Below, piece by piece: positions 3,001-52,528 of a stretch of 64,000 nucleotides of DNA. A program made the position numbers and the translations under genes. Origin of the DNA: a virus; IMG/VR virus record IMGVR_UViG_3300027969_000042, positions 32,001 to 96,000 of that record; one strand, 5' to 3'. Positions within the stretch are counted from its first letter, which is position 1. The number at the start of each line of letters is the position of its first letter. The notes below the pieces were generated by a model. It was given only the letters and a program-made list of their open reading frames with translations. It did no database searches and was not told where the DNA came from.

Positions 3001-5420
3001 GAAGTAAAATCTCCACCTTTTTTAGATACTGTTATTAAGTTTATATCTCTATTTACAACATAAAATGGTGCCAATTTAGGGATATTTATTTTTTCATATT
3101 TAATTGCACCAAAAATTTCTCCTTGCGTATCAGGATGTTCAATAAGTAAGTCATATGAAACACTTTCTAATAATTTAATACCATTTGATTTGAATGTTGA
3201 GAATGTACCAACATTACCAACTTTTACTGCATTATACCAATTGGTAAAATATGAACCAACTACATCTAGTGATGCACCATCTTCTAAATAAGCACCAATA
3301 CCATATCCTTCACCTTTATTACCAGATGTCAGTATATCAACTGATGCACCAACTCCTGATATAAAAGTACCAATTGAGTTTGTACCACCTATTGGTAAAT
3401 TATAATAATTTTCTAAATTCACATAAGAGATAAATTCATTTTCTGAAATAACTTTAACACCATAAGAATACACTCCATTAAAATCGATATATTCTCCATA
3501 AAATTCACTATCAACAGAGTTTGCAGTTACTTCAATACCTATATCACAACTTTCAAATGAAATTTTATGAACTTGTGAGTAGTTACCATTATTATAGACT
3601 CTAATGGCAGGAACTCCAATTGAACTATTTTGTATTGTTAAAAATGAAATTTCATTATTTGTACCTAAATCAAAAACTACATTATCTGCAATTGGTTCTA
3701 TAACTACTGAATCAATAGATGAACCAACAATAGATACATATGGACTATTAGTTAAATCTATAGTAGGTTCTAAATAAATACCTGGATTTACTTTAATAAT
3801 ATATCTGTTATTCTCATCCATATCATTAATAGATGCAACTGCAGCTGCTAATGATTGATGATCTCCATCTCTTTTTGCAACAGTTATAATTTTTAAGTCA
3901 TAGTTATAAATATAAAATGGTGCACCGTCTAAATAAAATTTAGTATGGTCAACAACTCCAAAACAAAATCCTGTTGTTAAAGGATGCTCAATATAAAAAT
4001 CATATATACCAGATTCTGATATAGATAAGCTATTTAATCTTAAATCTGGTGCATTTAAACCTTCATTTTTTGAATATATTGTTTTTTCAAATCCTCTTAA
4101 TGTTGATGCTAGTGCAATTACTTGAGCACCATCATAAACAATTATACCAGTTGTACCAGTTGCTGGTTTTACTCGTATTGTTGAGTTTGTCAATGTAAAT
4201 AATGTATTTACACCATATACTGTAATAAATGTTACAAGTGGTGATACTAAGTCATAGTAATTACAATCTACTAATAAAATTTGTGTAATAACCTCATTAG
4301 TATTATTTACTAAAAATCCATATTTATTTGTACCTGTAATTGTACATCTATTTACATGAACCAATGACTTTTCTACTGCACCATAACAATGTACCTGTGT
4401 TTCATTATTTTTAAAATTACAATCTCTAATAACAAATTCAACTCCACCAGTACCTTCATGATAAACTGCTAATCCACCAATCCCATTGGCACCACTTAAA
4501 GTTACTTTATTGATTGATGACTCATCACAACCTATAAAAATAGTACTTGTGCTATCAATTGGTTTAACAATTACTCCACCGGTAGTATCACCGATAACAG
4601 AAATATGTGATTTCATTGTTATTGTGTCTTCTTCATATACACCAGGTCCAACTTTAATAATAAATGGATTAGATGCAGATGCGGTTGTAATTGAATCAAC
4701 TGCTTCTTTAATACTTGAAAATTGATTAGATCCAGTTGTTCCTTTTTTAACAGTAATTATATTGGTATCATAGATTTGTAAATCTAATTGATCGATTGCT
4801 AATTGCACATTAGTTTGTGTTAGACTACCAATTGGTTCATAAGTTACTAATGATGCAGTAAATGATGTTGGTGTTAGTCCGATCTCTCCTTGTGGTCCTG
4901 TCACTCCTTGAGGTCCAGGTATAGTTGAATCCGCTCCTGTTGCACCGATTGGTCCTATTTCTCCTTGAGGTCCTGTTGCACCGATTGGTCCTTGAGGTCC
5001 AGGTATATTTGAATCCGCTCCTGTTGCACCGATTGGTCCGATCTCTCCTTGTGGTCCAGTTGCACCGATTGACCCTACTTCTCCTTGAGGTCCAGTTGCA
5101 CCAGTCGTTGCTTGTTCAAATACATGTGTTACGTAGTTTTGAATATCTTTATCTATTAGAATAGGTACGTTACTAGTTAGTGTATCTATCTGTTGTTGTA
5201 ATCTTATTAAAGCAAGTTTTGCCTCATTTTGTGTTGAGAAATCTATTATTACAACTTTTAATGACTTTAAACTTATTCTTAATAGATTATTATCAACAGA
5301 TACATTTATTATAACAAATGGATTTATTGTATATTTAATATCATTAGTATCATCTAAAACTTTAATACTTCTGTCAGATGTAGTAATTGGTCTCAAAAAT
5401 TTATAGTAACTATAACTCAT
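1..5420 (-). CDS. Giant tail fibre/adhesin, >1806 aa, running off the window start: collagen-like repeats, three tandem beta-helix modules, fibre motifs and SSGTSG repeats
   Basis: Not in the ORF track (no stop inside the window). ATG at 5420 gives [11 protein letters not shown]...; the frame was in register wherever I translated it, including position 3 ([19 protein letters not shown]), though I did not check every codon. Contains GATGPQGE repeats, ITVxKxG-D-F/H-xSI..AV.SI...I.VGPG.Y.E x3, DDHPQY and [12 protein letters not shown]. Confidence 0.85.
230..665 (-). repeat. Coding low-complexity repeat (SSGTSG / [11 protein letters not shown] units; ~63-nt unit three times)
   Basis: Repeated ccacttgtacctgatgaa and ggacctgtagcaccaattata on the + strand, in frame with the fibre gene. 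Confidence 0.9.
4890..5110 (-). repeat. Collagen-like Gly-X-Y coding repeat
   Basis: [38 protein letters not shown] in the fibre frame. Confidence 0.9.
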
Positions 5421-6618: not shown

Positions 6619-9330
6619 TTACTTAATATCTTCAATATTTATTGCATACCTCTCTTTTAATACATCAGAATTTGATATTCTAGTTATTCTAATTTTTTTA
6701 CCTTTATTAAAACTAAAATAAGGCATATTAGAAAGTAAATAACCATTATTTACATTATTTATATTATTTGTAGCAGTTGAGTTAAAAGATAGTGGTAATG
6801 ATGCTGTTGAACCATAGTTAACTAAACTTGCATTTGAACTAATATCTAGTATTATATAAGAATCTACTGAATCTACTGACTGAACTGTATATTGACCAGA
6901 AAAATCATAAATAGAAGAAGTTCCAACAAATAAGTTATTTAAGTGAAGAACATCACCAGTTTTAATTGAATTTGTTACTAACTCTTGAGGTGCTTTTAAA
7001 GGTACCCTCAATACAGAACCAACATCCAAAAGTATTAACTTATCTAAGTTTATTTCAAACTTAAACTCATTCCATAAGTAAGATGAATTAGGTTGTTGTG
7101 TGAATGTGTTATAGTAAACTGGTAAGTTTATACCACCTGCTAGTAAAACTTGTGTTGTTGCCTGAGTAGTTGTGTTTATAATATCAGTATTCATATAAAT
7201 ATCTAACATCTTATTCTGAGTAGAGAAGTTACCAGCAACAATATTAATATCAACTGATTGTTTATAATATAAATCCTTATCAAAAATAAAAGTTAGTTTA
7301 TCATTATTAGTTAAGTCCAACTCAACTTCATCATTATTAGTGAAATTTACTAAAAAGTCTCTATTTTTAGGAACTGTTAAAGTCGCGGGTATAATACCTT
7401 GTGAACTATACATATCAGTTGCATTATAAACATAAACTCTTTCATAAGAAGTATTTACTGTGTCTAATTGTATATACGGTGGTGTTCCGGGAACTGTAGT
7501 AACATCTATAGTTTCTGATGATAAAATTTGATTAGTTGAATATAATCTTAATAAACTTTCAAGATTTTGAATTTTTGTATTTAGTGTTGCTAAATCTGTT
7601 TGTGTGTAAATTAAACTTTTTAAGAAGGTTACTTCATCTCTAACATTACCTTGTTCTGCAAGTAGATTTATAAAACTGTCATTTGTTGCAGCAAGTTTAG
7701 ACATTGACTTATTAAACAAGTTCATACTAAACATGGAATTTATAGCATCAGGATTATATGAATCTTGTGGATTTTCATTTATTATATTAAAGTTAAGATT
7801 TAAACTAAATGCAAATGAAGTACCATCTTGTATTCCATTAGTTACAAACTTTTTATAAGTTGGAAATCTTAAACTTGTTTCTTCAGGAATTACATTATTA
7901 TCCGGGTGATCTAAAAATGAAACACCATATAAATTAGTTGTTGATTTACCACTATTATCCTCAACAGTATAATACCATAAAATAGCATTAAATTCAAATG
8001 CAACTGGTGGTAAATTATTTATCTCTAAAGCATTAAATTGATCAAAGTTAGTTAAGTTTCTACCTAAGATATTCATTTTAACATAGTGATTAGTATTAAA
8101 GTTCATTGTAATACCATCAATGTTTTTACCATTGACAATAGGTGAATTTATATTACCATCTATACCATAATATTTACCACTTCTTCTGAATGAGTCACCA
8201 GGTGCTGTTTCATATGTAAAATCGGTAGTATCATATTGTCCAAAGTAAGAACCTGGATAATTTTGTGGTGTATTTACAATTGGTGAATTAAATGATTCTG
8301 CTCCAATTATTTCTGGTTGATATTGACTAGGAATAATAGGAAAAGTTTTATTAGGTTTGTAATTCACATCCGTCATCGTTCTAAAAAGAATGTCTGGTGT
8401 TTGACCAGTATGATCTGGAATATGTGCATGAACCTCTGTATAAGAACGATTAGCTTGTTGAACATTACTAACACCTTGTACTTCACCAATATATCTAACT
8501 AATCTATTATAAACTAATTTTGCCTTACCAGTTACAGGTGAAGTATTTAAACTAAAGACATTATTAGTAGCTAATTCAAATGTTACTATATTTCCACTAA
8601 CTGATCTTACTCTTACATTTATACCACTATCGGTTTCTATACCTTGTAAATCTGATATAGCCTGTGTAGACAATCCTATTACATTATAAATATTTACAAC
8701 ATCACCAATTACAAAGTTAGTAGTACCATTGAAGGTAATTACTAAATACCCAGTTGATCCATCAAAATATGGTGTGTCCCACTCAACAACTTCTCTTTCC
8801 TTCCATAAATATTCTGGAAAGTATTGATCATCATTTACATTACCTGATTGAAACTCTGCCAAATTACTAAAGTATTCGTCATCTGGAATAGCAGGTTCAA
8901 AATCAATTATATTTAATTTCTTTGCCCATTTAAAGAAAATCTTTTCTGTTGTAGTTTCAAGTGCATTGTTATCATAATAATACTCAGTATTATTTAGTTT
9001 TGATTCTTTTATAGTAACTTCTTGATTTGCGACATAGTTTCTTAATGATTCGATTATTTCTTCACTAAAATTTGCAGCAGGTGTTGCAGCAAATGATTTT
9101 TTAAATTTAGTTTCAAAGTCAAAGTAAATTGGTTTTGATGCAGTTGGTGAACCAGTAGCCTCTGTATATTGTTCAGTTACTTGCTTTGGTAGATTTAATA
9201 AAGCGTATTTAGAAAAATACATTTTATAATTTGAGTTCTGATATGCTGCTGAAATATCTTCTGCTGCACTAGGGAACGCATAAAACGTAGTACCGTTAGT
9301 CTTTAGTGATTTATATAAAGGACAAGACAT
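6619..9330 (-). CDS. Large hypothetical structural protein (baseplate/tail-like)
   Basis: 903-aa N/T/S-rich, beta-rich ORF with a late-type motif upstream. Confidence 0.7.
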   Translation of the reverse strand: MSCPLYKSLKTNGTTFYAFPSAAEDISAAYQNSNYKMYFSKYALLNLPKQVTEQYTEATGSPTASKPIYFDFETKFKKSFAATPAANFSEEIIESLRNYVANQEVTIKESKLNNTEYYYDNNALETTTEKIFFKWAKKLNIIDFEPAIPDDEYFSNLAEFQSGNVNDDQYFPEYLWKEREVVEWDTPYFDGSTGYLVITFNGTTNFVIGDVVNIYNVIGLSTQAISDLQGIETDSGINVRVRSVSGNIVTFELATNNVFSLNTSPVTGKAKLVYNRLVRYIGEVQGVSNVQQANRSYTEVHAHIPDHTGQTPDILFRTMTDVNYKPNKTFPIIPSQYQPEIIGAESFNSPIVNTPQNYPGSYFGQYDTTDFTYETAPGDSFRRSGKYYGIDGNINSPIVNGKNIDGITMNFNTNHYVKMNILGRNLTNFDQFNALEINNLPPVAFEFNAILWYYTVEDNSGKSTTNLYGVSFLDHPDNNVIPEETSLRFPTYKKFVTNGIQDGTSFAFSLNLNFNIINENPQDSYNPDAINSMFSMNLFNKSMSKLAATNDSFINLLAEQGNVRDEVTFLKSLIYTQTDLATLNTKIQNLESLLRLYSTNQILSSETIDVTTVPGTPPYIQLDTVNTSYERVYVYNATDMYSSQGIIPATLTVPKNRDFLVNFTNNDEVELDLTNNDKLTFIFDKDLYYKQSVDINIVAGNFSTQNKMLDIYMNTDIINTTTQATTQVLLAGGINLPVYYNTFTQQPNSSYLWNEFKFEINLDKLILLDVGSVLRVPLKAPQELVTNSIKTGDVLHLNNLFVGTSSIYDFSGQYTVQSVDSVDSYIILDISSNASLVNYGSTASLPLSFNSTATNNINNVNNGYLLSNMPYFSFNKGKKIRITRISNSDVLKERYAINIEDIK

Positions 9331-21458: not shown

Positions 21459-22097
21459 TTAATATCTATAATTGCGGGTCGGCTTGCGGCATTTTAATTG
21501 ACTTTTGCAATTGTTTAACTCAGAATTCCCTGCTTCTAAACGAGCAGACTTTCTCTTTAGAACCAAGCCTTCGATCATATCAATTTCTACTAAATCATTA
21601 TACAAATCTAAAAAGTTTGATGTATAAGACTTCACTCTATAAATGTTCTCTGATATACCGTATAAGTAAGGTTTCTCACAAGCTTTTGTACCATACAATT
21701 TGTCAAGTAAGACAACTCTTTCTTCAAAAGTTTTACCAACTAAAGAATCTCCATCTAAAACAAGAATGTCAAAGATAACAAACTTATGATTGAAAACTTT
21801 ACGATTTTCATCACTCTTACTTTTATTCATATACTCACCATTGATTACCATCCATTCACCATTTCCACGGTACATAGATTTTAATTCTTCATCGGTAATT
21901 TGAAAGTTAGTAAGTCTGCCATTGTGTCTATTCATTACAATGTGTTTTTCACCATTAGTGTAAATGGTACAGTTTGAACCATTAAGTTTTGGTTGTCCTA
22001 AAAGTGTGTTATTATCCCAGAAGTCTAAATCACTAGACATTATCGCGTTTTTTGGACGTGGTGGGTAGATGTATCTATAGTTTGAGTATTTTGCCAT
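21459..22097 (-). CDS. ATP-dependent ligase-like nucleotidyltransferase (adenylation domain only)
   Basis: Motif I QPKLNG, then INGEY, FVIFDIL, EGLVLK and a terminal KCRK; 212 aa with no OB domain. Confidence 0.8.
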   Translation of the reverse strand: MAKYSNYRYIYPPRPKNAIMSSDLDFWDNNTLLGQPKLNGSNCTIYTNGEKHIVMNRHNGRLTNFQITDEELKSMYRGNGEWMVINGEYMNKSKSDENRKVFNHKFVIFDILVLDGDSLVGKTFEERVVLLDKLYGTKACEKPYLYGISENIYRVKSYTSNFLDLYNDLVEIDMIEGLVLKRKSARLEAGNSELNNCKSQLKCRKPTRNYRY

Positions 22098-47649: not shown

Positions 47650-49098
47650 TTAAAGTTGAATAGCTTTAATTTCATTGAAAAGAGCTTTTTTATCCATCTC
47701 CATCATCTTCATTACATCGAAAACTTTATCAGAGAAACCAGCTAAAGCAAATACATTGTTTTCTGGAAACTGCATTGTACCAAGACCCGCTAAATCCCAA
47801 GAGTAAACATAAGGATTTGCATCATACGTTTTCTTGTATTGTTTGAACTCAGCAGTTGGACTTGTGTAACCAACCCATCCTTGCATATCTGAAAGGATAA
47901 CAACTCTATCATACTTTTTATTAGCAGTAGTAAAGATTGACTTGAAGTTTGTTCCACCTCCAGAGTATCTAAAACTATTTCTAATTGTCATAACAGAATC
48001 CATTGGGTTGTATGACTTGTAGTCCGATCTATTCGCGAATGTTAAAACATCTGCGTTGTTGGATTTTGCTAAAATAGCACCAAATAATGAAGCAATCTCA
48101 GAAGGTCTTCCACTCATTGATCCAGAAACGTCCATAACAACTAATGTATCACCATCAAACTTAGGAACATTACACATTGAAACCTCTAACGCTTGGTTTA
48201 TCGCAACTAAAACGTCTCTAACTCCTTTTGAAGATCCCATTTTACTGATTTCTTCGTAAGCAGTTGCAAATCTAAAAGGTAAAACTCTTGATTTACTAAT
48301 CATTCTTTCATCTACTAACAACTCACAAGCAGCAGGAACTACGTTAGGTGCTTGATTTAAGATGTTTCTTAGGTTTCTCAAAAGTGCAAAATAACCAATT
48401 TTTCTTGAAGTGATTAAATCAGTCCAAGCATCAGATTTTAATTGACTTAAATCTTCTTCATTCTCAGCTACTTGACCTGCTTGAGAAAGTTTAGCTTCCC
48501 AAGTTTCTGTGTTTTTCAAATCACCTTTAACAAGTAATTCTAAAGCAGTTTTGTTTCTATCAGTTGGAACTGGGTGTACAATGTTCACTAAGTCAACTAA
48601 TTTAAGGTCTTTGTTTTTACCAGAGTATTTTGCTAATTGATAAGCATCGAATTTATCGAAAGCTTTTGCAAATCCTTTTTTCAAAGAGTTTGGAAACTTT
48701 GGATTGTCTTTACTTGTTTTGTGTAATAAGTAGTATGACATAATCTCAGTCATATCATCAACACGAACTACAACTTTGTCATAGAAGTTTTTACCTAATT
48801 CACTACCTTTTAACTCTGATGCCAATTCACCAGCTAAAGCGTGAGTAATACTTCTCATACCAAATTTATCACGAGCATAAATTGCTGCTTTTGCTGAGAA
48901 CTCAGGATCTACTTTCTTAACCAAGTTTCTTAAATCTTTTAATGTATCATTACCAGACTTATAGAATTGATCATTTACGAATGAAGTCAATAACATAGAT
49001 ACTAAAGCTAATTCATTTGTTTGAGAATAAGCTTCACCACCTGCTAGGTTTATAGTTTTTGTTTTTGGCTCTTTTACGGTTGTGTTAAATTTTGACAT
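47650..49098 (-). CDS. rsr: Ro60/TROVE-domain RNA-binding protein with C-terminal vWA
   Basis: NLAGGEAY, AIYARDKFGMRS, QLAKY, DLVNIVHP, ALLRNLRNI, SRVLPFRF, MIDAS-like DVSGSM, GGGT, LSDMQ. Confidence 0.93.
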   Translation of the reverse strand: MSKFNTTVKEPKTKTINLAGGEAYSQTNELALVSMLLTSFVNDQFYKSGNDTLKDLRNLVKKVDPEFSAKAAIYARDKFGMRSITHALAGELASELKGSELGKNFYDKVVVRVDDMTEIMSYYLLHKTSKDNPKFPNSLKKGFAKAFDKFDAYQLAKYSGKNKDLKLVDLVNIVHPVPTDRNKTALELLVKGDLKNTETWEAKLSQAGQVAENEEDLSQLKSDAWTDLITSRKIGYFALLRNLRNILNQAPNVVPAACELLVDERMISKSRVLPFRFATAYEEISKMGSSKGVRDVLVAINQALEVSMCNVPKFDGDTLVVMDVSGSMSGRPSEIASLFGAILAKSNNADVLTFANRSDYKSYNPMDSVMTIRNSFRYSGGGTNFKSIFTTANKKYDRVVILSDMQGWVGYTSPTAEFKQYKKTYDANPYVYSWDLAGLGTMQFPENNVFALAGFSDKVFDVMKMMEMDKKALFNEIKAIQL

Positions 49099-49130
49099 AT
49101 TATTATTTTATTTTTATTTCGTTTTTTTGT

Positions 49131-49171
49131 AAAAAAAAAGACCAGAATTACATTTCTGTAAATCTGGTCTT
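49131..49171 (-). terminator. Intrinsic terminator between the ncRNAs and the Ro60 gene
   Basis: Minus strand: AAGACCAGA-loop-TCTGGTCT plus a T run, ending about 32 nt before the Ro60 ATG. Confidence 0.75.
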
Positions 49172-49182
49172 ATTATAATTTA

Positions 49183-49408
49183 GCAAACAAGAATATTAGC
49201 CTAAGCGACGCAAAGAATTCTACTTAACTTTGCCGATATTTAAAGTAACATCTCACTCATATTTTTAAAGGAAACTTATGAATTCCTGACTTTTCGACCA
49301 GAGGCAAGCGCTATTGCCCTTACATGGTAGCATAGAGTAGTCGTCTCTATACGTTCTTTCTGATAGTTGTATAATATACGAAGTATCTTAGAACTTTGCT
49401 ATGTTTGC
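49183..49408 (-). ncRNA. Y-RNA-like structured RNA 2 (~226 nt)
   Basis: Ends pair (GCAAACA/TGTTTGC 7 bp; CTAAG/CTTAG 5 bp); internal hairpins ATAGAG/CTCTAT, GGCAA/TTGCC, AGGAA/TTCCT, CAAAG/CTTTG; shares TAGCAAA-N6-AGATACTTCG with RNA 1. Confidence 0.6.
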
Positions 49409-49427
49409 GTTTTTTTATAAATAAAAC

Positions 49428-49492
49428 CAGAGTAAGTTATCTTAGAGAGTTTTTTTGAATCCATATCGAAGTATCTCTATGATTTGCTACTG
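49428..49492 (-). ncRNA. Y-RNA-like structured RNA 1 (~65 nt)
   Basis: Terminal CAG/CTG and TAGAGA/TCTCTA stems; same TAGCAAA-N6-AGATACTTCG motif. Confidence 0.55.
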
Positions 49493-49614
49493 ATTGTATT
49501 ATTGTATTATTAAATTAGAAAAAGTTTAATCTTTTTCTAATTTATTTTATGTATATAGTAACCTTGAAAATTTCGCTTTTTTCCAAGGTGGATTTTTTAT
49601 AGTGTTCTAGAATG

Positions 49615-49914
49615 TTATTTATCTTTCATAAAATCAACAATTCTACTTTTAATCCTATCCAAATCTACATAATTTCTTCCATTAGGATTTGTAAAATTTC
49701 TTTCTTCGTCTGTGTTCGGGTCAAAATTTCCTAAACTACTTACATAATAGTCTTTAATTAGGTCTATTACTTCATCCTTAGTATATTTTTGAGTTGGTTT
49801 TTCAGAGTCTACATGTATATGATAGTAATCACCACTCATATCACCAGTCTTTGTTTGGTAATCATCTGGTACTCCAGACCCTGGAAAATGTTCAAATAAT
49901 TTAATATTTTTCAT
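49615..49914 (-). CDS. Hypothetical protein with CTS-like N-terminus
   Basis: MKNIKLFEHF; TTATATATAG upstream. Confidence 0.7.
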   Translation of the reverse strand: MKNIKLFEHFPGSGVPDDYQTKTGDMSGDYYHIHVDSEKPTQKYTKDEVIDLIKDYYVSSLGNFDPNTDEERNFTNPNGRNYVDLDRIKSRIVDFMKDK

Positions 49915-49978: not shown

Positions 49979-52528
49979 TTATGAACCACAAGCTAAACAA
50001 TCATCAGGATTGTCTAACGAACAACTGATTTCTGCCATTTGGTCTTCAACAGATTTCACTTCTTCTTGAGTTGTGAATTTAACTGCATCACCTGCTGCTT
50101 TATTTCTTAGATAGTAAATACCTGTTTTTAATGAAGCTTTTTTCTCTCTATAGAATCTAGCTTTACCAGCTTTATCATAGATTACTTCTGTATTTTCTCC
50201 TTGTGGGATAATTTCAACACCATGTTCATCTTTCATAAGAGCTCTTCTTCCCCATCCGTAAAAGTGCATTGCTGTCAATTTTGCGAAGTTTGGTGAATCC
50301 ATAAAGATATTCATAGATTGAGTTTGATCAATAAATGCTCCTCTTTCTGCTGCCATATCAATTACATCTCTTTGTTTAATCTCATAAACAGTTTTAAAGA
50401 TTTCTTTTACATTAGTAGGTACTTCAGGGATATTCTGAACTGAACCATTCTCTGCAATAATTTTTCTTCTAATGTTATCTGACCAGATACCTAATTTAAC
50501 TAATTCTTTTACAAGGTATTTGTTTACAATGATAAAAGTACCAGATAAAACACCTCTTGTGTACATATTTGAAGTTTGTGCTTCACAACTTGCTTCGTTT
50601 CCTAAGATAGATGCAGTTGATGCAGTTGGCATAATACAAGTAGTTAAAGAATTTCTAACACCATATTTTTTAATATCTTCTCTTAATTTATCCCAATCCC
50701 ATCTTTTTGTTGGTTTTGCACCCCATAAATCAAATTGGAATTTTCCCTCTGATATTGGAGATCCTTTAAATGTTGGATAAGCGCCTTCTACTTTAGCTAA
50801 ATCACAAGAAGCTTTAATCGAAGCATAATAAATAGTTTCAAAAATTTCTTTGTTTAATGATTTCGCTTCATCAGAATCATAAGTAATTCCTAATAAAAAG
50901 AATACATCTGCCAATCCTTGAACTCCTAAACCAATTGGTCTATGTAATAAGTTTGAGAATCTAGCTGCTTCTGATGGATAAAAATTTACATCAATAACCT
51001 TATTCAAGTTTACAGTAGCTTGATAAGCAACATCATATAATTTATTATGATTATAAGTTTTGTTTTTATTTACAAATTTAGGAAGTGCAATAGAAGCTAA
51101 GTTACAAACAGCAGTTTCATTTACAGATTCTTCACCATAGAATGAACCTAATCCTAAACTTTCAAGTAATTCTTTATTTTGAAGAATTTCTTTTTGTACT
51201 TTAGTAATTCCAGTGGCTTCAACAATTTCTGCACACAAATTAGAACTTCTAACTACACCAATGTTTGATTGGTTAGACTTCTCATTGATAGAATCTTTAT
51301 ATAAAATATAAGGTGTTCCTGTTTCAATTTGAGATTCTAAGATTTTATTCCAAACCTCTCTTGCTTTTATTACTTTTTTAAATCGTCCTTCTGATTCATA
51401 ACTAATGTATAAGTCTCTAAATTCTTGGCCATAAGTTTCAGTTAAACCAGGACACTCGTGTGGACACATTAAAGACCAATCTTCATCTAAGTCAACTCTT
51501 TCCATAAATAAGTCATTAGTCCACATAGCCAAGAATAAATCTCTTGCTCTGATTTCATCTTTACCTTGGTTTTTTCTTAAATCTAGGAAATCCATAATAT
51601 CTGCATGCCAAGGTTCCATATAAATTGCTATTGAACCTTTTCTTTTTCCACCACCTTGATCTACCGCTCTTGCAGTTTCATTGAAGATTTTTAAGAAAGG
51701 AATAATACCATTTGAAGTACCATTAGTTCCGGCAATATAAGTACCTTTAGCTCTTACTTTTGTAAAAGAAATACCAATACCACCTGCATTTTTAGAAATT
51801 TGTGCAGACTCTTTTAGTGTATTGAAGATACCTTCGATAGAATCTGATTCTGTATCAAGTAAGAAACAAGATGATAATTGTGGTCTTGTTGTTCCAGAGT
51901 TGAATAATGTTGGTGTAGCGTGTGTATAATAACCTTCTGAAAGTAAGTTATAAGTATCGATAACACCTTGTATGTCTTCACCACATACTTGTAGTGCTGT
52001 TCTCATATACATATATTGAGGTCTTTCGGCAACTTTACCGTCAAGTTTCAATAGATATGATTTTTCTAATGTTTTGAATCCAAAGTAATCAAAATTATGA
52101 TCTCTGGAGTGTACAATTGCAGAATCTAATTCATCTGCGTGTTTTTTTACAATATCACGGAAAGTTTTAGAAACAATCGGTGAATGTTTTCTAGTTTTTG
52201 GATCTATGTATTTGTATAAATCAGAAACCGTTTCTGAAAAACTCTTTTTAGTTTCTTTGTGTAATGCCGTAATTGCTAATCTAGCCGCTAATGTTGAATA
52301 GTCAGGGTGTTTTGTTGTAAGAGATGCCGCAGTCTCCATTGCTAGAGAATCTAAAACAGAAGTTTGAATATCTGGCATAATACCTTCAATTACTTTTTGG
52401 GCAACTTCAAATGGTACAATCCATTTCTGGTCTAGTCCATAAGTTTGTTGTGTGATTCTATCTAAGATTTTGTCTAACATGACTGGCTCTTTCTTACCAT
52501 TTCTTTTCATTACTTTTATCATGCTCAT
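49979..52528 (-). CDS. nrdA: Class Ia ribonucleotide reductase alpha subunit with ATP cone
   Basis: ATP cone, TPTLFNSGT, QLSSCFL, GGGKRKG, SNLCAEI, VCNLAS, PTASTA, GIYYLR, C-terminal CLAC. Confidence 0.97.
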   Translation of the reverse strand: MSMIKVMKRNGKKEPVMLDKILDRITQQTYGLDQKWIVPFEVAQKVIEGIMPDIQTSVLDSLAMETAASLTTKHPDYSTLAARLAITALHKETKKSFSETVSDLYKYIDPKTRKHSPIVSKTFRDIVKKHADELDSAIVHSRDHNFDYFGFKTLEKSYLLKLDGKVAERPQYMYMRTALQVCGEDIQGVIDTYNLLSEGYYTHATPTLFNSGTTRPQLSSCFLLDTESDSIEGIFNTLKESAQISKNAGGIGISFTKVRAKGTYIAGTNGTSNGIIPFLKIFNETARAVDQGGGKRKGSIAIYMEPWHADIMDFLDLRKNQGKDEIRARDLFLAMWTNDLFMERVDLDEDWSLMCPHECPGLTETYGQEFRDLYISYESEGRFKKVIKAREVWNKILESQIETGTPYILYKDSINEKSNQSNIGVVRSSNLCAEIVEATGITKVQKEILQNKELLESLGLGSFYGEESVNETAVCNLASIALPKFVNKNKTYNHNKLYDVAYQATVNLNKVIDVNFYPSEAARFSNLLHRPIGLGVQGLADVFFLLGITYDSDEAKSLNKEIFETIYYASIKASCDLAKVEGAYPTFKGSPISEGKFQFDLWGAKPTKRWDWDKLREDIKKYGVRNSLTTCIMPTASTASILGNEASCEAQTSNMYTRGVLSGTFIIVNKYLVKELVKLGIWSDNIRRKIIAENGSVQNIPEVPTNVKEIFKTVYEIKQRDVIDMAAERGAFIDQTQSMNIFMDSPNFAKLTAMHFYGWGRRALMKDEHGVEIIPQGENTEVIYDKAGKARFYREKKASLKTGIYYLRNKAAGDAVKFTTQEEVKSVEDQMAEISCSLDNPDDCLACGS

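What the first reader, a model, noticed from the sequence alone, without database searches (positions are those of the whole stretch)
49183..49492. Tandem pair of Y-RNA-like ncRNAs of very different size sharing one motif, upstream of a phage Ro60
Seen: two end-paired folds (49428-49492, ~65 nt; 49183-49408, ~226 nt). Both carry CGAAGTATCT-N6-TTTGCTA on + (TAGCAAA-N6-AGATACTTCG on -) at identical spacing, while the flanking stems differ in sequence yet still pair (TAGAG/CTCTA vs CTAAG/CTTAG; CAG/CTG vs GCAAACA/TGTTTGC), which is covariation within one locus. Established: Ro60 proteins bind Y RNAs encoded next to rsr, and Y RNAs consist of a Ro-binding stem plus an effector module. Inference: one minimal Ro-binding RNA plus one RNA with a large multi-hairpin, non-tRNA-like effector domain, possibly a new Y RNA class. 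The minus strand is favoured by co-orientation with Ro60 and the terminator, but some G-U pairs favour plus, so the strand is not settled.
Basis: partly seen in the sequence, partly recalled or inferred. Interest (0 to 1): 0.85.

Follow-up and report, generated by a model that had tools for sequence, protein, structure and literature searches.

The report
Two phage Y RNAs beside Ro60
Just upstream of a jumbo phage's Ro60 gene lie two structured non-coding RNAs that share a Ro60-binding stem, and the larger one replaces the usual tRNA-like part of bacterial Y RNAs with a big pseudoknotted domain matching no described family.

Summary
There are two end-paired RNA genes, at 49428-49492 and 49183-49408. 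They carry the only two exact copies of the shared motif in the window.

The strand is now settled as minus, the same strand as Ro60. About 25 related huge-phage loci keep both RNAs. Their stems covary strongly, and G-U pairs outnumber A-C pairs 40 to 7 in the small RNA. More distant phage Ro60 loci carry the same motif at the 5' end of RNAs with correctly oriented tRNA-like T and D arms. Those RNAs hit Rfam YrlA below its threshold.

The shared motif is the phage version of the YrlA Ro60-binding module.
- The small RNA (about 66 nt) is a YrlB-like hairpin.
- The large RNA (226 nt here, 221-294 nt in relatives) has no tRNA-like domain and no Rfam match. It holds several covarying hairpins and a candidate pseudoknot.

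A tandem pair of Y RNAs upstream of a phage Ro60 is already published (Thermus phage phiLo, 2025), so the kind is known. The oversized non-tRNA effector domain, and the clade that carries it, appear undescribed in what I could search.

Ro60 binding, discrete transcripts and the domain's partner are all untested. Verdict: a new variant of a known kind, of moderate interest. The scan had flagged this same stretch once before, in another read of this genome.

The parts
49425..49494 (-). Small Y RNA (YrlB-like hairpin). The paired core runs 49427-49493. Layout: P1a UCAG/CUGG, a bulged U, P1b AGCAA/UUACU, P2 AUCAUAGAG/CUCUAAGAU, and an apical loop AUACUUCG...AAAAAAAC.
   Evidence: In alignment A1 (23 distinct homologues), 92.7% of cells are paired and 10 of 18 pairs show changes on both sides. 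No shuffle of 500 reaches this, and slid controls give 27-49%. RNAalifold finds the same fold on its own. G-U 40 against A-C 7. Model R1 scores it at 76 bits, E 2e-14, and it is the only copy in the 177.5 kb record.
49183..49408 (-). Large Y RNA, 226 nt. It has the same Ro-binding module: P1 GCAAACA/UGUUUGC, a bulged U, P1b, P2, then AUACUUCG. This module encloses a domain of about 180 nt that is not tRNA-like.
   Evidence: In alignment A3 (23 distinct homologues, 221-294 nt), P1/P1b/P2 are 88% paired and 9 pairs show changes on both sides. No shuffle of 500 reaches this, and slid controls give 25-58%. There is no Rfam hit at E<=10 here or in L009, and no tRNA by ARAGORN.
49467..49489 (-). Shared motif, copy 1 (small RNA): UAGCAAA-N6-AGAUACUUCG on the RNA strand.
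   Evidence: Exact match. G[AU]UACUUCG is invariant in the relatives.
49379..49401 (-). Shared motif, copy 2 (large RNA): UAGCAAA-N6-AGAUACUUCG.
   Evidence: Exact match. It is invariant in the relatives. It aligns to the YrlA consensus CgaAUGCuu through L030.
49330..49352 (-). Large-RNA hairpin H2 (nt 57-79).
   Evidence: AUAGAG/CUCUAU in the window becomes AUAAAG/CUUUAU in L003. The outer stem differs among relatives: GUCU/AGAC, GAC/GUC, GCUU/AAGC. These were read by eye. The formal count on A2 (48.8% paired) was spoiled by a column-mapping error, so this helix has no valid count.
49297..49328 (-). Large-RNA hairpin H3 (nt 81-112), variable in length and sequence.
   Evidence: GGGCAA/UUGCCU in the window is replaced by CUAAGAA/UUCUUAG in L003. 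Read by eye.
49269..49287 (-). Large-RNA hairpin AGGAA/UUCCU with a 9-nt loop (nt 122-140). It is absent in L007 and L010.
   Evidence: 100% paired but invariant within the main subgroup of relatives, group A. It becomes CAAGAA/UUCUUG in a second subgroup, group B. The loop is not a conserved T-loop.
49235..49257 (-). Hairpin AGUGA/UUACU (nt 152-165). Its loop GAUG pairs with a downstream UAUC (nt 171-174), giving a candidate H-type pseudoknot.
   Evidence: The loop-to-downstream helix is 90% paired in 23 sequences. GAUG/CAUC becomes GAAA/UUUC in L014/L015 and UAUG/UAUA in L009. The hairpin stem covaries: AGUGA/UCACU becomes CGUG/CACG.
49210..49233 (-). Large-RNA hairpin GCAAAG/CUUUGC (nt 176-199).
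   Evidence: 100% paired with 3 pairs changed on both sides in A2. The pairs at the tip covary between subgroups.
49126..49174 (-). Intrinsic terminator (AAGACCAGAUU...AAUUCUGGUCUU plus a U9 run). It closes the Y RNA unit 27 nt before the Ro60 start codon.
   Evidence: Inverted repeat I4. The U run is read from the sequence. It is present in all clade loci. In L082 a convergent gene follows it instead of Ro60.
49551..49603 (-). Conserved upstream element: TATAAAAAATCC box, a covarying hairpin, then ACUAUAUAC. It is probably the promoter and 5' end of the Y RNA precursor.
   Evidence: It is present in nearly all clade loci, whatever gene lies upstream. Its function is inferred.
47650..49098 (-). 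Phage Ro60 (TROVE plus vWA), 482 aa.
   Evidence: Pfam TROVE E 1e-18. PHROG 850, RNA-binding protein, E 5e-44. PDB 9KOP/9L5Y, E 1e-25.

Best explanation
The 516-nt intergenic region upstream of the phage Ro60 gene encodes a minus-strand unit. Within it, a roughly 450-470-nt transcript probably starts at a conserved TATAAA-type box and 5' hairpin and ends at a strong terminator. It carries two Y RNAs in tandem.

Both RNAs pair their 5' and 3' ends into the same protein-binding module. This is a lower helix, a bulged U, a conserved AGYGA/UUNCU helix with a non-Watson-Crick centre, and a 9-bp helix of free sequence. Next comes the invariant G[AU]UACUUCG on the 5' side. In the small RNA this faces an A-rich stretch ending in ACA on the 3' side. 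In the large RNA the stretch before the 3' strand of that helix is short and variable (for example UAACG or GUCG). This module is the phage form of the YrlA/YrlB Ro60-binding stem, so each RNA is expected to dock one Ro60 ring.

The small RNA is little more than this module. It would therefore act as a gate or cap on Ro60. In the large RNA the module encloses a roughly 180-240-nt domain of five or more hairpins and a pseudoknot. This takes the place of the tRNA-like effector module of YrlA. By analogy with other Y RNAs, it would tether Ro60 to a partner, either a host or phage nuclease or another RNA-handling factor.

Shown here: the folds, the strand, homology of the module, and the absence of a tRNA-like domain. 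Inferred: Ro60 binding, processing into two RNAs, and the gate and tether roles.
For: - The motif and end-pairing are exact.
- Small RNA: 92.7% paired and 10 pairs changed on both sides. RNAalifold agrees independently.
- Large RNA module: 88% paired and 9 pairs changed on both sides.
- Internal hairpins and the pseudoknot covary.
- Strand: G-U 40 against A-C 7 in the small RNA, and about 60 G-U cells in the large module.
- Distant loci place the same UACUUC motif 5' of correctly oriented T and D arms on the Ro60 strand. These hit RF02553 YrlA at E 5e-9 to 1e-3.
- The L030 alignment puts CGGAUACUU on the YrlA consensus CgaAUGCuu.
- Model R1 finds small hairpins of this type next to YrlA-like RNAs in distant Ro60 loci.
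- The module GUAGUGA-N-GUUACUUCG occurs in at least 119 viral contigs, mostly around tRNA-like inserts.
- Ro60 identity is confirmed.
- Published precedent: Y RNAs lie near Ro60 on the same strand and are modular (PMC4201824, bioRxiv 10.1101/312249). Phage phiLo Ro60 binds two upstream Yrl RNAs and host PNPase (PMC12135203).
Against: - There are no expression, end-mapping or binding data.
- The literal CGAA / GNCGAAN0-1G motif used to define YrlA is absent. The equivalent position reads GAGAUAC.
- Rfam YrlA does not hit the window even at E<=10, so homology of the module rests on intermediates that score below the gathering cut-off.
- In the window's own lineage the small RNA folds better on the plus strand.
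- Much of the large RNA's interior was modelled by eye. The central helices (H2-H4) lack a clean formal count.
- The shuffle controls do not correct for phylogeny.
Confidence: 0.8

Rival explanations
1. There is one functional RNA, not two. The region yields a single transcript of about 310-470 nt with two Ro60-binding stems. It stays unprocessed and assembles two Ro60 rings side by side on a bivalent scaffold.
For: Only about 16 nt of A/U-rich spacer separates the two stems. Just one conserved promoter-like element and one strong terminator are seen. Related loci carry 2-4 modules in tandem. The phiLo Ro60-Yrl2 complex can form dimers (PMC12135203).
Against: M. smegmatis YrlA and YrlB are processed from one precursor into separate Rsr-bound RNAs (PMC4201824). 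In the window the small RNA's stem is followed by UUUUAUUU, which could terminate or mark an end. Some contigs carry the small RNA alone (L075).
Confidence: 0.2
2. The large structured RNA is a cis-acting leader of the Ro60 mRNA. Ro60 binds the Y-like stem in its own 5' UTR and controls read-through of the terminator 27 nt before its start codon (autoregulatory attenuation).
For: The order structured RNA, terminator, gene is typical of attenuators. The terminator lies very close to the start codon, leaving little room for a separate promoter.
Against: In L082 the complete cassette (upstream element, small RNA, large RNA, terminator) is followed by a convergent gene. No Ro60 is present in that 103 kb fragment. 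The only candidate anti-terminator found, the small RNA's 3' end CUCUGGUC, does not covary with the terminator: L022 and L033 change to CGG while the terminator keeps CUGG. Read-through coupling of Ro60 to Y RNA transcription remains possible. That is co-expression rather than a riboswitch-like mechanism.
Confidence: 0.07
3. The RNAs are made from the plus strand, divergent from Ro60. This is suggested by the better plus-strand fold of the window's small element and by the CGAAG sequence, which resembles the published CGAA motif.
For: The plus-strand fold of 49428-49492 has z -3.55 against -0.87 for minus. On the plus strand the motif reads CGAAGUA.
Against: Across the homologues, 40 G-U pairs would become A-C mismatches on the plus strand, against 7 the other way. 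The P2 helix of the large RNA has three positions that are mostly G-U. The large RNA shows no plus-strand signal (z -0.38). Distant relatives have T and D arms that are valid only on the Ro60 strand. On the plus strand the motif would sit in the 3' arm, unlike any known Y RNA.
Confidence: 0.03
4. The repeated motif is a DNA-level signal, such as duplicated promoter or operator sites, rather than part of RNAs.
For: Two identical 17-base patterns 88 bp apart lie in an intergenic region upstream of a gene.
Against: The flanking sequences covary as RNA helices over distances of 45-290 nt, with G-U wobble. The motif occurs nowhere else in the window or in the 177.5 kb record. It is embedded in tRNA-like RNAs elsewhere.
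Confidence: 0.02

Closest known systems
YrlA (Rfam RF02553; Chen et al. 2014, PMC4201824), the tRNA-like bacterial and phage Y RNA
   Same: It is encoded next to Ro60 on the same strand. The 5' and 3' ends pair into a stem carrying the Ro60-binding element. The element AUACUU after the stem matches the YrlA consensus AUGCuu, and includes the conserved UA. The 3' side is A-rich in the small RNA. The RNA is modular.
   Different: There is no T arm, D arm or acceptor-like stem and no literal CGAA. No RF02553 hit is found at E<=10. At 226-294 nt it is much longer than the 80-130 nt of characterised Y RNAs. The effector domain is a multi-hairpin, pseudoknotted fold.
YrlB / Yrn2, the second small Y RNAs of Salmonella, M. 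smegmatis and D. radiodurans
   Same: The small RNA is a long hairpin that is little more than the Ro-binding stem, and it is encoded in tandem with the larger Y RNA.
   Different: The apical loop is A-rich and 25-30 nt long, not a small pyrimidine-rich loop. No sequence similarity to these RNAs could be tested, because no reference sequences were held.
Yrl1/Yrl2 of Thermus phage phiLo (PMC12135203)
   Same: Two Y-like RNAs sit immediately upstream of a phage Ro60. That protein is the window protein's best PDB match (E 1e-25).
   Different: The phiLo RNAs were defined by a CGAA bulge. Model R1 does not find them, and no large structured domain is reported for them. Binding to Ro60 and host PNPase was shown there by experiment, not here.
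Metazoan Y RNAs (RF00019)
   Same: They have a terminal stem with a bulged pyrimidine on the 5' strand within a conserved helix, plus a variable effector loop.
   Different: The conserved sequence differs (GGUCCGA/UUGACC). No Rfam hit was found. They are RNA polymerase III genes.

Membership tests
Y RNA in the broad sense (Ro60-partner ncRNA) | Encoded close to Ro60 on the same strand (the bacterial and phage rule: within about 4 kb) | tested here: met
   The large RNA ends 84 nt before the Ro60 start codon, and the small RNA ends 326 nt before it. Comparative data place them on the same strand as Ro60.
Y RNA in the broad sense (Ro60-partner ncRNA) | The 5' and 3' ends pair into a long stem that carries a conserved, bulged binding helix | tested here: met
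   P1a/P1, a bulged U, P1b and P2 are supported by covariation in both RNAs.
Y RNA in the broad sense (Ro60-partner ncRNA) | Physically bound by Ro60 | not testable with these tools
   This needs co-immunoprecipitation or a gel-shift assay with the protein from 47650-49098.
YrlA (RF02553) | tRNA-like effector domain with conserved T and D stem-loops | tested here: not met
   No tRNA, YrlA or tmRNA hit at E<=10. ARAGORN finds nothing in the window or in 25 clade loci. The UUC-loop hairpin is not conserved and is missing in L007 and L010.
YrlA (RF02553) | GNCGAAN0-1G motif near the 5' end | tested here: not met
   The equivalent position reads UAGAGAUAC or CUAAGAUAC. The invariant part is shifted to UACUUCG.
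YrlA (RF02553) | Score at or above the Rfam gathering cut-off (69 bits) | tested here: not met
   There is no hit in the window. Distant phage relatives with tRNA-like inserts score 24-52 bits.
YrlB-type small Y RNA | A long hairpin made essentially of the Ro-binding stem with a small loop, accompanying a larger Y RNA | tested here: inconclusive
   The hairpin architecture and tandem position fit. The loop is A-rich and about 25-30 nt long, not small and pyrimidine-rich.
Known Rfam families of any kind, for the large domain | A significant covariance-model match | tested here: not met
   The best hits are terminator look-alikes or noise: L20 leader at 26 bits against a cut-off of 58.7, and PutA thermometer at E 0.49.

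The most novel reading that the evidence does not exclude
The large RNA founds a new Y RNA subclass. Its roughly 180-240-nt pseudoknotted domain recruits a partner other than the one reached through tRNA mimicry. This would give a clade of jumbo and mega phages their own Ro60-based RNA-processing particle. Phage Y RNAs in general would then be a swappable-adaptor system: the same Ro-binding arms are seen here around tRNA-like, hairpin-only and at least three unrelated large inserts.
Probability: 0.35. Interest if true: 0.75.

Novelty: new variant of a known kind. Interest (0 to 1): 0.58.

Why it matters
Y RNAs are thought to work as adaptors that gate Ro60 and tether it to an effector. In bacteria the only effector module understood so far is the tRNA mimic of YrlA.

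A well-conserved, covarying family keeps the Ro60-binding arms but replaces the tRNA mimic with a large unrelated fold. That offers a natural test of the adaptor idea and a handle for finding new Ro60 partners.

It also supplies a sharper sequence signature for phage Y RNAs (GUAGYGA ... G[AU]UACUUCG ... UUNCU). The current Rfam model misses this signature at its gathering threshold. The signature marks at least 119 viral contigs.

The phage record here has no tRNA genes in 177.5 kb. This fits a Y RNA that no longer imitates tRNA.

Tried and rejected
- Rfam at gathering and at E<=10 on the window, on L009 and on 28 loci found nothing for the window's RNAs. The L20-leader hit is only the terminator.
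- ARAGORN found no tRNA or tmRNA.
- Model R1 on the phiLo locus gave no significant match, so no direct link to the experimentally studied Yrl1/Yrl2 could be made.
- I considered reading the AGGAA/UUCCU, AGUGA/UCACU and GCAAAG/CUUUGU hairpins as degenerate T, acceptor and D arms in YrlA order. I dropped this because the loops lack the T-loop and D-loop signatures and the first hairpin is dispensable.
- A resemblance of GUGAAAAAGUCC to the RNase P P4 region has no Rfam support.
- Small ORFs: none of 30 aa or more lies within the two RNAs, and the RNA lengths vary by non-multiples of three.
- An anti-terminator formed by the small RNA's 3' end shows no covariation with the terminator.
- My formal count for helix H2 on A2 failed because of a column-mapping error (48.8%). 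H2 therefore rests on inspection only.
- RNAalifold on the 405-column alignment recovered only P1, the pseudoknot helix and one hairpin tip, because the variable regions align poorly.
- The review PMC10870794 is not held.

Full report
**Setting**

The window comes from a 177.5 kb viral record judged 74% complete, so a jumbo phage of roughly 240 kb. It is about 29% G+C.

The minus strand around the finding carries, in order of transcription:
- a ribonucleotide reductase large subunit (49979-52528),
- a 99-aa ORF (49615-49914),
- a 516-nt gap,
- a 482-aa TROVE/vWA protein (47650-49098).

That protein is a Ro60: Pfam TROVE E 1e-18, PHROG 850 E 5e-44. Its best solved relative is the Ro60 of Thermus phage phiLo (9KOP/9L5Y, E 1e-25, full length).

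**The observation**

The pattern CGAAGTATCT-N6-TTTGCTA occurs exactly twice, at 49379-49401 and 49467-49489. Even with three mismatches allowed, only one unrelated site is added (0.31 expected by chance).

No ORF of 30 aa or more lies within the two RNAs.

Single-sequence folding does not fix the strand. The small element prefers plus (z -3.55 against -0.87) and the large one prefers minus (z -2.39 against -0.38).

**Relatives**

A back-translated search with the Ro60 protein found 34 viral loci, at 97% down to 28% identity. One deposited 635 kb megaphage, LR745206.1, also matched.

On the Ro60 strand, nearly every locus has 2-4 tandem copies of ...UAGYGA-N(6-7)-G[AU]UACUUCG upstream of Ro60.

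In the 25 loci whose Ro60 is at least 66% identical to the window's, the arrangement matches the window: a small RNA of 64-72 nt as extracted (about 4 nt of that is flanking sequence), a 13-23 nt spacer, an RNA of 221-294 nt, a terminator, then Ro60.

**The small RNA**

I aligned 23 distinct sequences (A1). The structure is:
- P1a, CCAG/CUGG;
- a bulged U;
- P1b, AGYGA/UUNCU;
- P2, 9 bp;
- an apical loop of 25-30 nt.

This structure is 92.7% paired. Ten of its 18 pairs have changes on both sides, including 8 of the 9 pairs in P2. No shuffle of 500 reaches these values. Sliding the partner by 1-3 columns drops pairing to 27-49%. RNAalifold predicts the same fold with no guidance from me.

P1a also changes in step. 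CCAG/CUGG becomes UCAG/CUGA in L017 and CCG/CGG in L022 and L033.

**The strand**

Several lines agree on the Ro60 strand, which is window minus:
- In A1, 40 cells are G-U and only 7 are A-C, the form a plus-strand G-U would take.
- In the large RNA, three P2 positions and one P1b position are mostly G-U.
- GCAGACA and GCAAGCA pair with UGUUUGC through G-U.
- In distant loci (L029, L030, L031, L034, L024, L026) the same UACUUC motif sits 5' of T arms (GGUUCGAnUCC) and D arms (UAGCUCAnnnGGUAGAGC). These are meaningful only on the Ro60 strand.

The window's own lineage is unusual. It has UAGCAA, which gives a C·A mismatch on minus and a G·U pair on plus. That explains the misleading single-sequence fold.

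**Link to the known family**

Rfam YrlA (RF02553) matches those distant loci on the Ro60 strand over the whole model. The matches fall below the gathering score: 52.2 bits in L032, 48.4 in L030, 43.2 in L023, 42.3 in L029, 36.3 in L031 and 34.0 in L034, with E from 5e-9 to 1e-3.

The printed alignment for L030 places its CGGAUACUU on the consensus CgaAUGCuu. That is the end of the basal helix plus the conserved loop. The published GNCGAAN0-1G motif and the conserved UA lie there (PMC4201824; bioRxiv 10.1101/312249). So the motif shared by the two window RNAs is the phage version of the YrlA/YrlB Ro60-binding element, with P2 standing for the YrlA basal helix.

Model R1, built from the small RNAs, gave these results:
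- It finds only one copy in the phage record.
- It detects short hairpins of the same kind beside tRNA-like Y RNAs in distant loci, such as L032 4032-4101 right after the YrlA hit at 3899-4024.
- It finds nothing in the phiLo locus.

**How widespread the arms are**

Most are Y RNAs whose arms enclose a tRNA-like insert, often inside tRNA arrays. A minority are chance hits in coding sequence. Only 42 of 118 have a Ro60 within the fetched flank.

A crude survey of 129 distinct RNAs with complete arms gave this breakdown:

| Length | Count | Notes |
|---|---|---|
| 80 nt or less | 50 | none with a T-loop |
| 81-140 nt | 42 | 28 with a T-loop signature |
| 141-200 nt | 7 | 5 with a T-loop signature |
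| over 200 nt | 30 | 28 without a T-loop |

Most of the T-loop-free RNAs over 200 nt belong to the window's clade; a few are probably search artefacts. Two other large inserts without T-loops exist elsewhere: L070:10954 (275 nt) and L083:4416 (200 nt).

**The large RNA**

Across 23 distinct sequences (A3), the module P1/P1b/P2 is 88% paired. Nine pairs have changes on both sides, no shuffle of 500 reaches this, and slid controls give 25-58%. For example:
- P1 goes from GCAAACA/UGUUUGC to GAGGACA/UGUCCUC and to ACAAAUA/UAUUUGU.
- The first P1b pair goes from A-U to G-C.
- P2 position 4 goes from U-G to G-U and to A-U.

The centre of P1b is never a standard pair in the large RNA. It is one in only 11 of 23 small RNAs. 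This suggests a conserved non-canonical contact.

The interior falls into three sequence groups that still align. In the order they occur:
- an A/U-rich linker with a conserved AACUAU;
- hairpin H2;
- a variable hairpin H3;
- a conserved purine run, GUGAAAAAGUCC (UCGAAAAGUC in the window);
- a variable branched region, absent in the window;
- the hairpin AAGGAA/UUCCUU (CAAGAA/UUCUUG in group B, absent in L007 and L010);
- UAAAUAAAG;
- a hairpin whose loop GAUG pairs with a downstream CAUC;
- the hairpin GCAAAG/CUUUGY;
- the 3' arm.

The loop-to-downstream helix is 90% paired. It changes to GAAA/UUUC in L014/L015 and to UAUG/UAUA in L009. The last hairpin and its tip covary. H2 and H3 show obvious compensatory replacements between the window and its 96%-identical relative L003. 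I could not give these two a clean formal count.

No Rfam family matches, and ARAGORN finds no tRNA-like element.

**The transcription unit**

A conserved element lies 60-150 nt upstream of the small RNA in nearly all clade loci, whatever gene precedes it (about 60 nt in the window). It consists of a CTATAAANAATCC box, a covarying hairpin and a UAUAUAC-type box. It resembles a T4-type late box followed by a 5' stem-loop.

A strong terminator follows the large RNA.

In L082 the whole cassette is intact but a convergent gene follows it. No Ro60 lies anywhere in that 103 kb fragment. The cassette is therefore an autonomous unit and not merely the Ro60 leader. Read-through into Ro60 remains possible, because only 27 nt separate the U-run from the start codon.

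**Mechanism**

This part is inferred from the published behaviour of Y RNAs:
- Each stem docks a Ro60 ring.
- The small RNA gates the ring.
- The large RNA's domain tethers Ro60 to a partner.

The record has no tRNA genes and no RtcB. It has one Rnl2-type RNA ligase. That fits loss of tRNA mimicry but says nothing about the partner.

**Novelty**

Phage Ro60 with Y RNAs is known from mycobacteriophages and others (PMC4201824). A tandem upstream pair that binds Ro60 and host PNPase was shown for phiLo (PMC12135203).

I found no description of Y RNAs over 200 nt, or of a non-tRNA structured effector domain, in four literature searches or in Rfam 15.

The result is a new variant of a known kind. 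The fold evidence is good and the functional evidence is nil.

Noticed in passing
window 49551-49603 (-): A conserved TATAAA-type box plus a covarying hairpin (CCUUGGAAAA/UUUUCAAGG) lies upstream of the Y RNAs. It is present in nearly all clade loci whatever the upstream gene. It is probably the promoter and 5' stem-loop of the precursor.
   Followed up: partly
window 49363-49368 (-) with 49391-49397 (-): The conserved AACUAU in the large RNA can pair with the 5' arm (GAUAGUU) in competition with P1b/P2. L011 UCAUAG/CUAUGA against L017 UGAUAG/CUAUCA is a change on both sides. This may be a folding intermediate or a switch.
   Followed up: partly
L075 (32.8 kb contig with terminal repeats), around 7611-7720: A small Y RNA of this family is followed directly by the same GACCAGA-type terminator. 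There is no large RNA, and no Ro60 anywhere in the contig. This may be a phage that relies on a host Ro60.
   Followed up: partly
L070:10954-11228 and L083:4416-4615: These are other large Y RNAs without T-loops (275 nt and 200 nt). They have the same Ro-binding arms but unrelated, strongly folding inserts.
   Followed up: no
L024:2192-2500 and L026:2000-2500: Three or four Y RNA modules lie in tandem upstream of Ro60. One (L024 2376-2442) encloses a sequence that scores 52.5 bits as an ordinary, non-permuted tRNA.
   Followed up: no
window 49126-49174 (-): The terminator stem GACCAGA/UCUGGUC is conserved in sequence across loci. Its 3' arm equals the 3' end of the small RNA (CUCUGGUC). The two do not covary, so it may be a relic of a duplicated Y RNA stem.
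   Followed up: partly
window 21534-21992 (-), whole record G000: The 177.5 kb phage record has no tRNA genes and no RtcB, but it encodes an Rnl2-type RNA ligase (PF09414, E 1e-9).
   Followed up: no
L037 (Thermus phage phiLo) 985-1001: The region upstream of the phiLo Ro60 contains UUUACUUCGG, close to the motif invariant here. Its relation to the published Yrl1/Yrl2 could not be checked.
   Followed up: no
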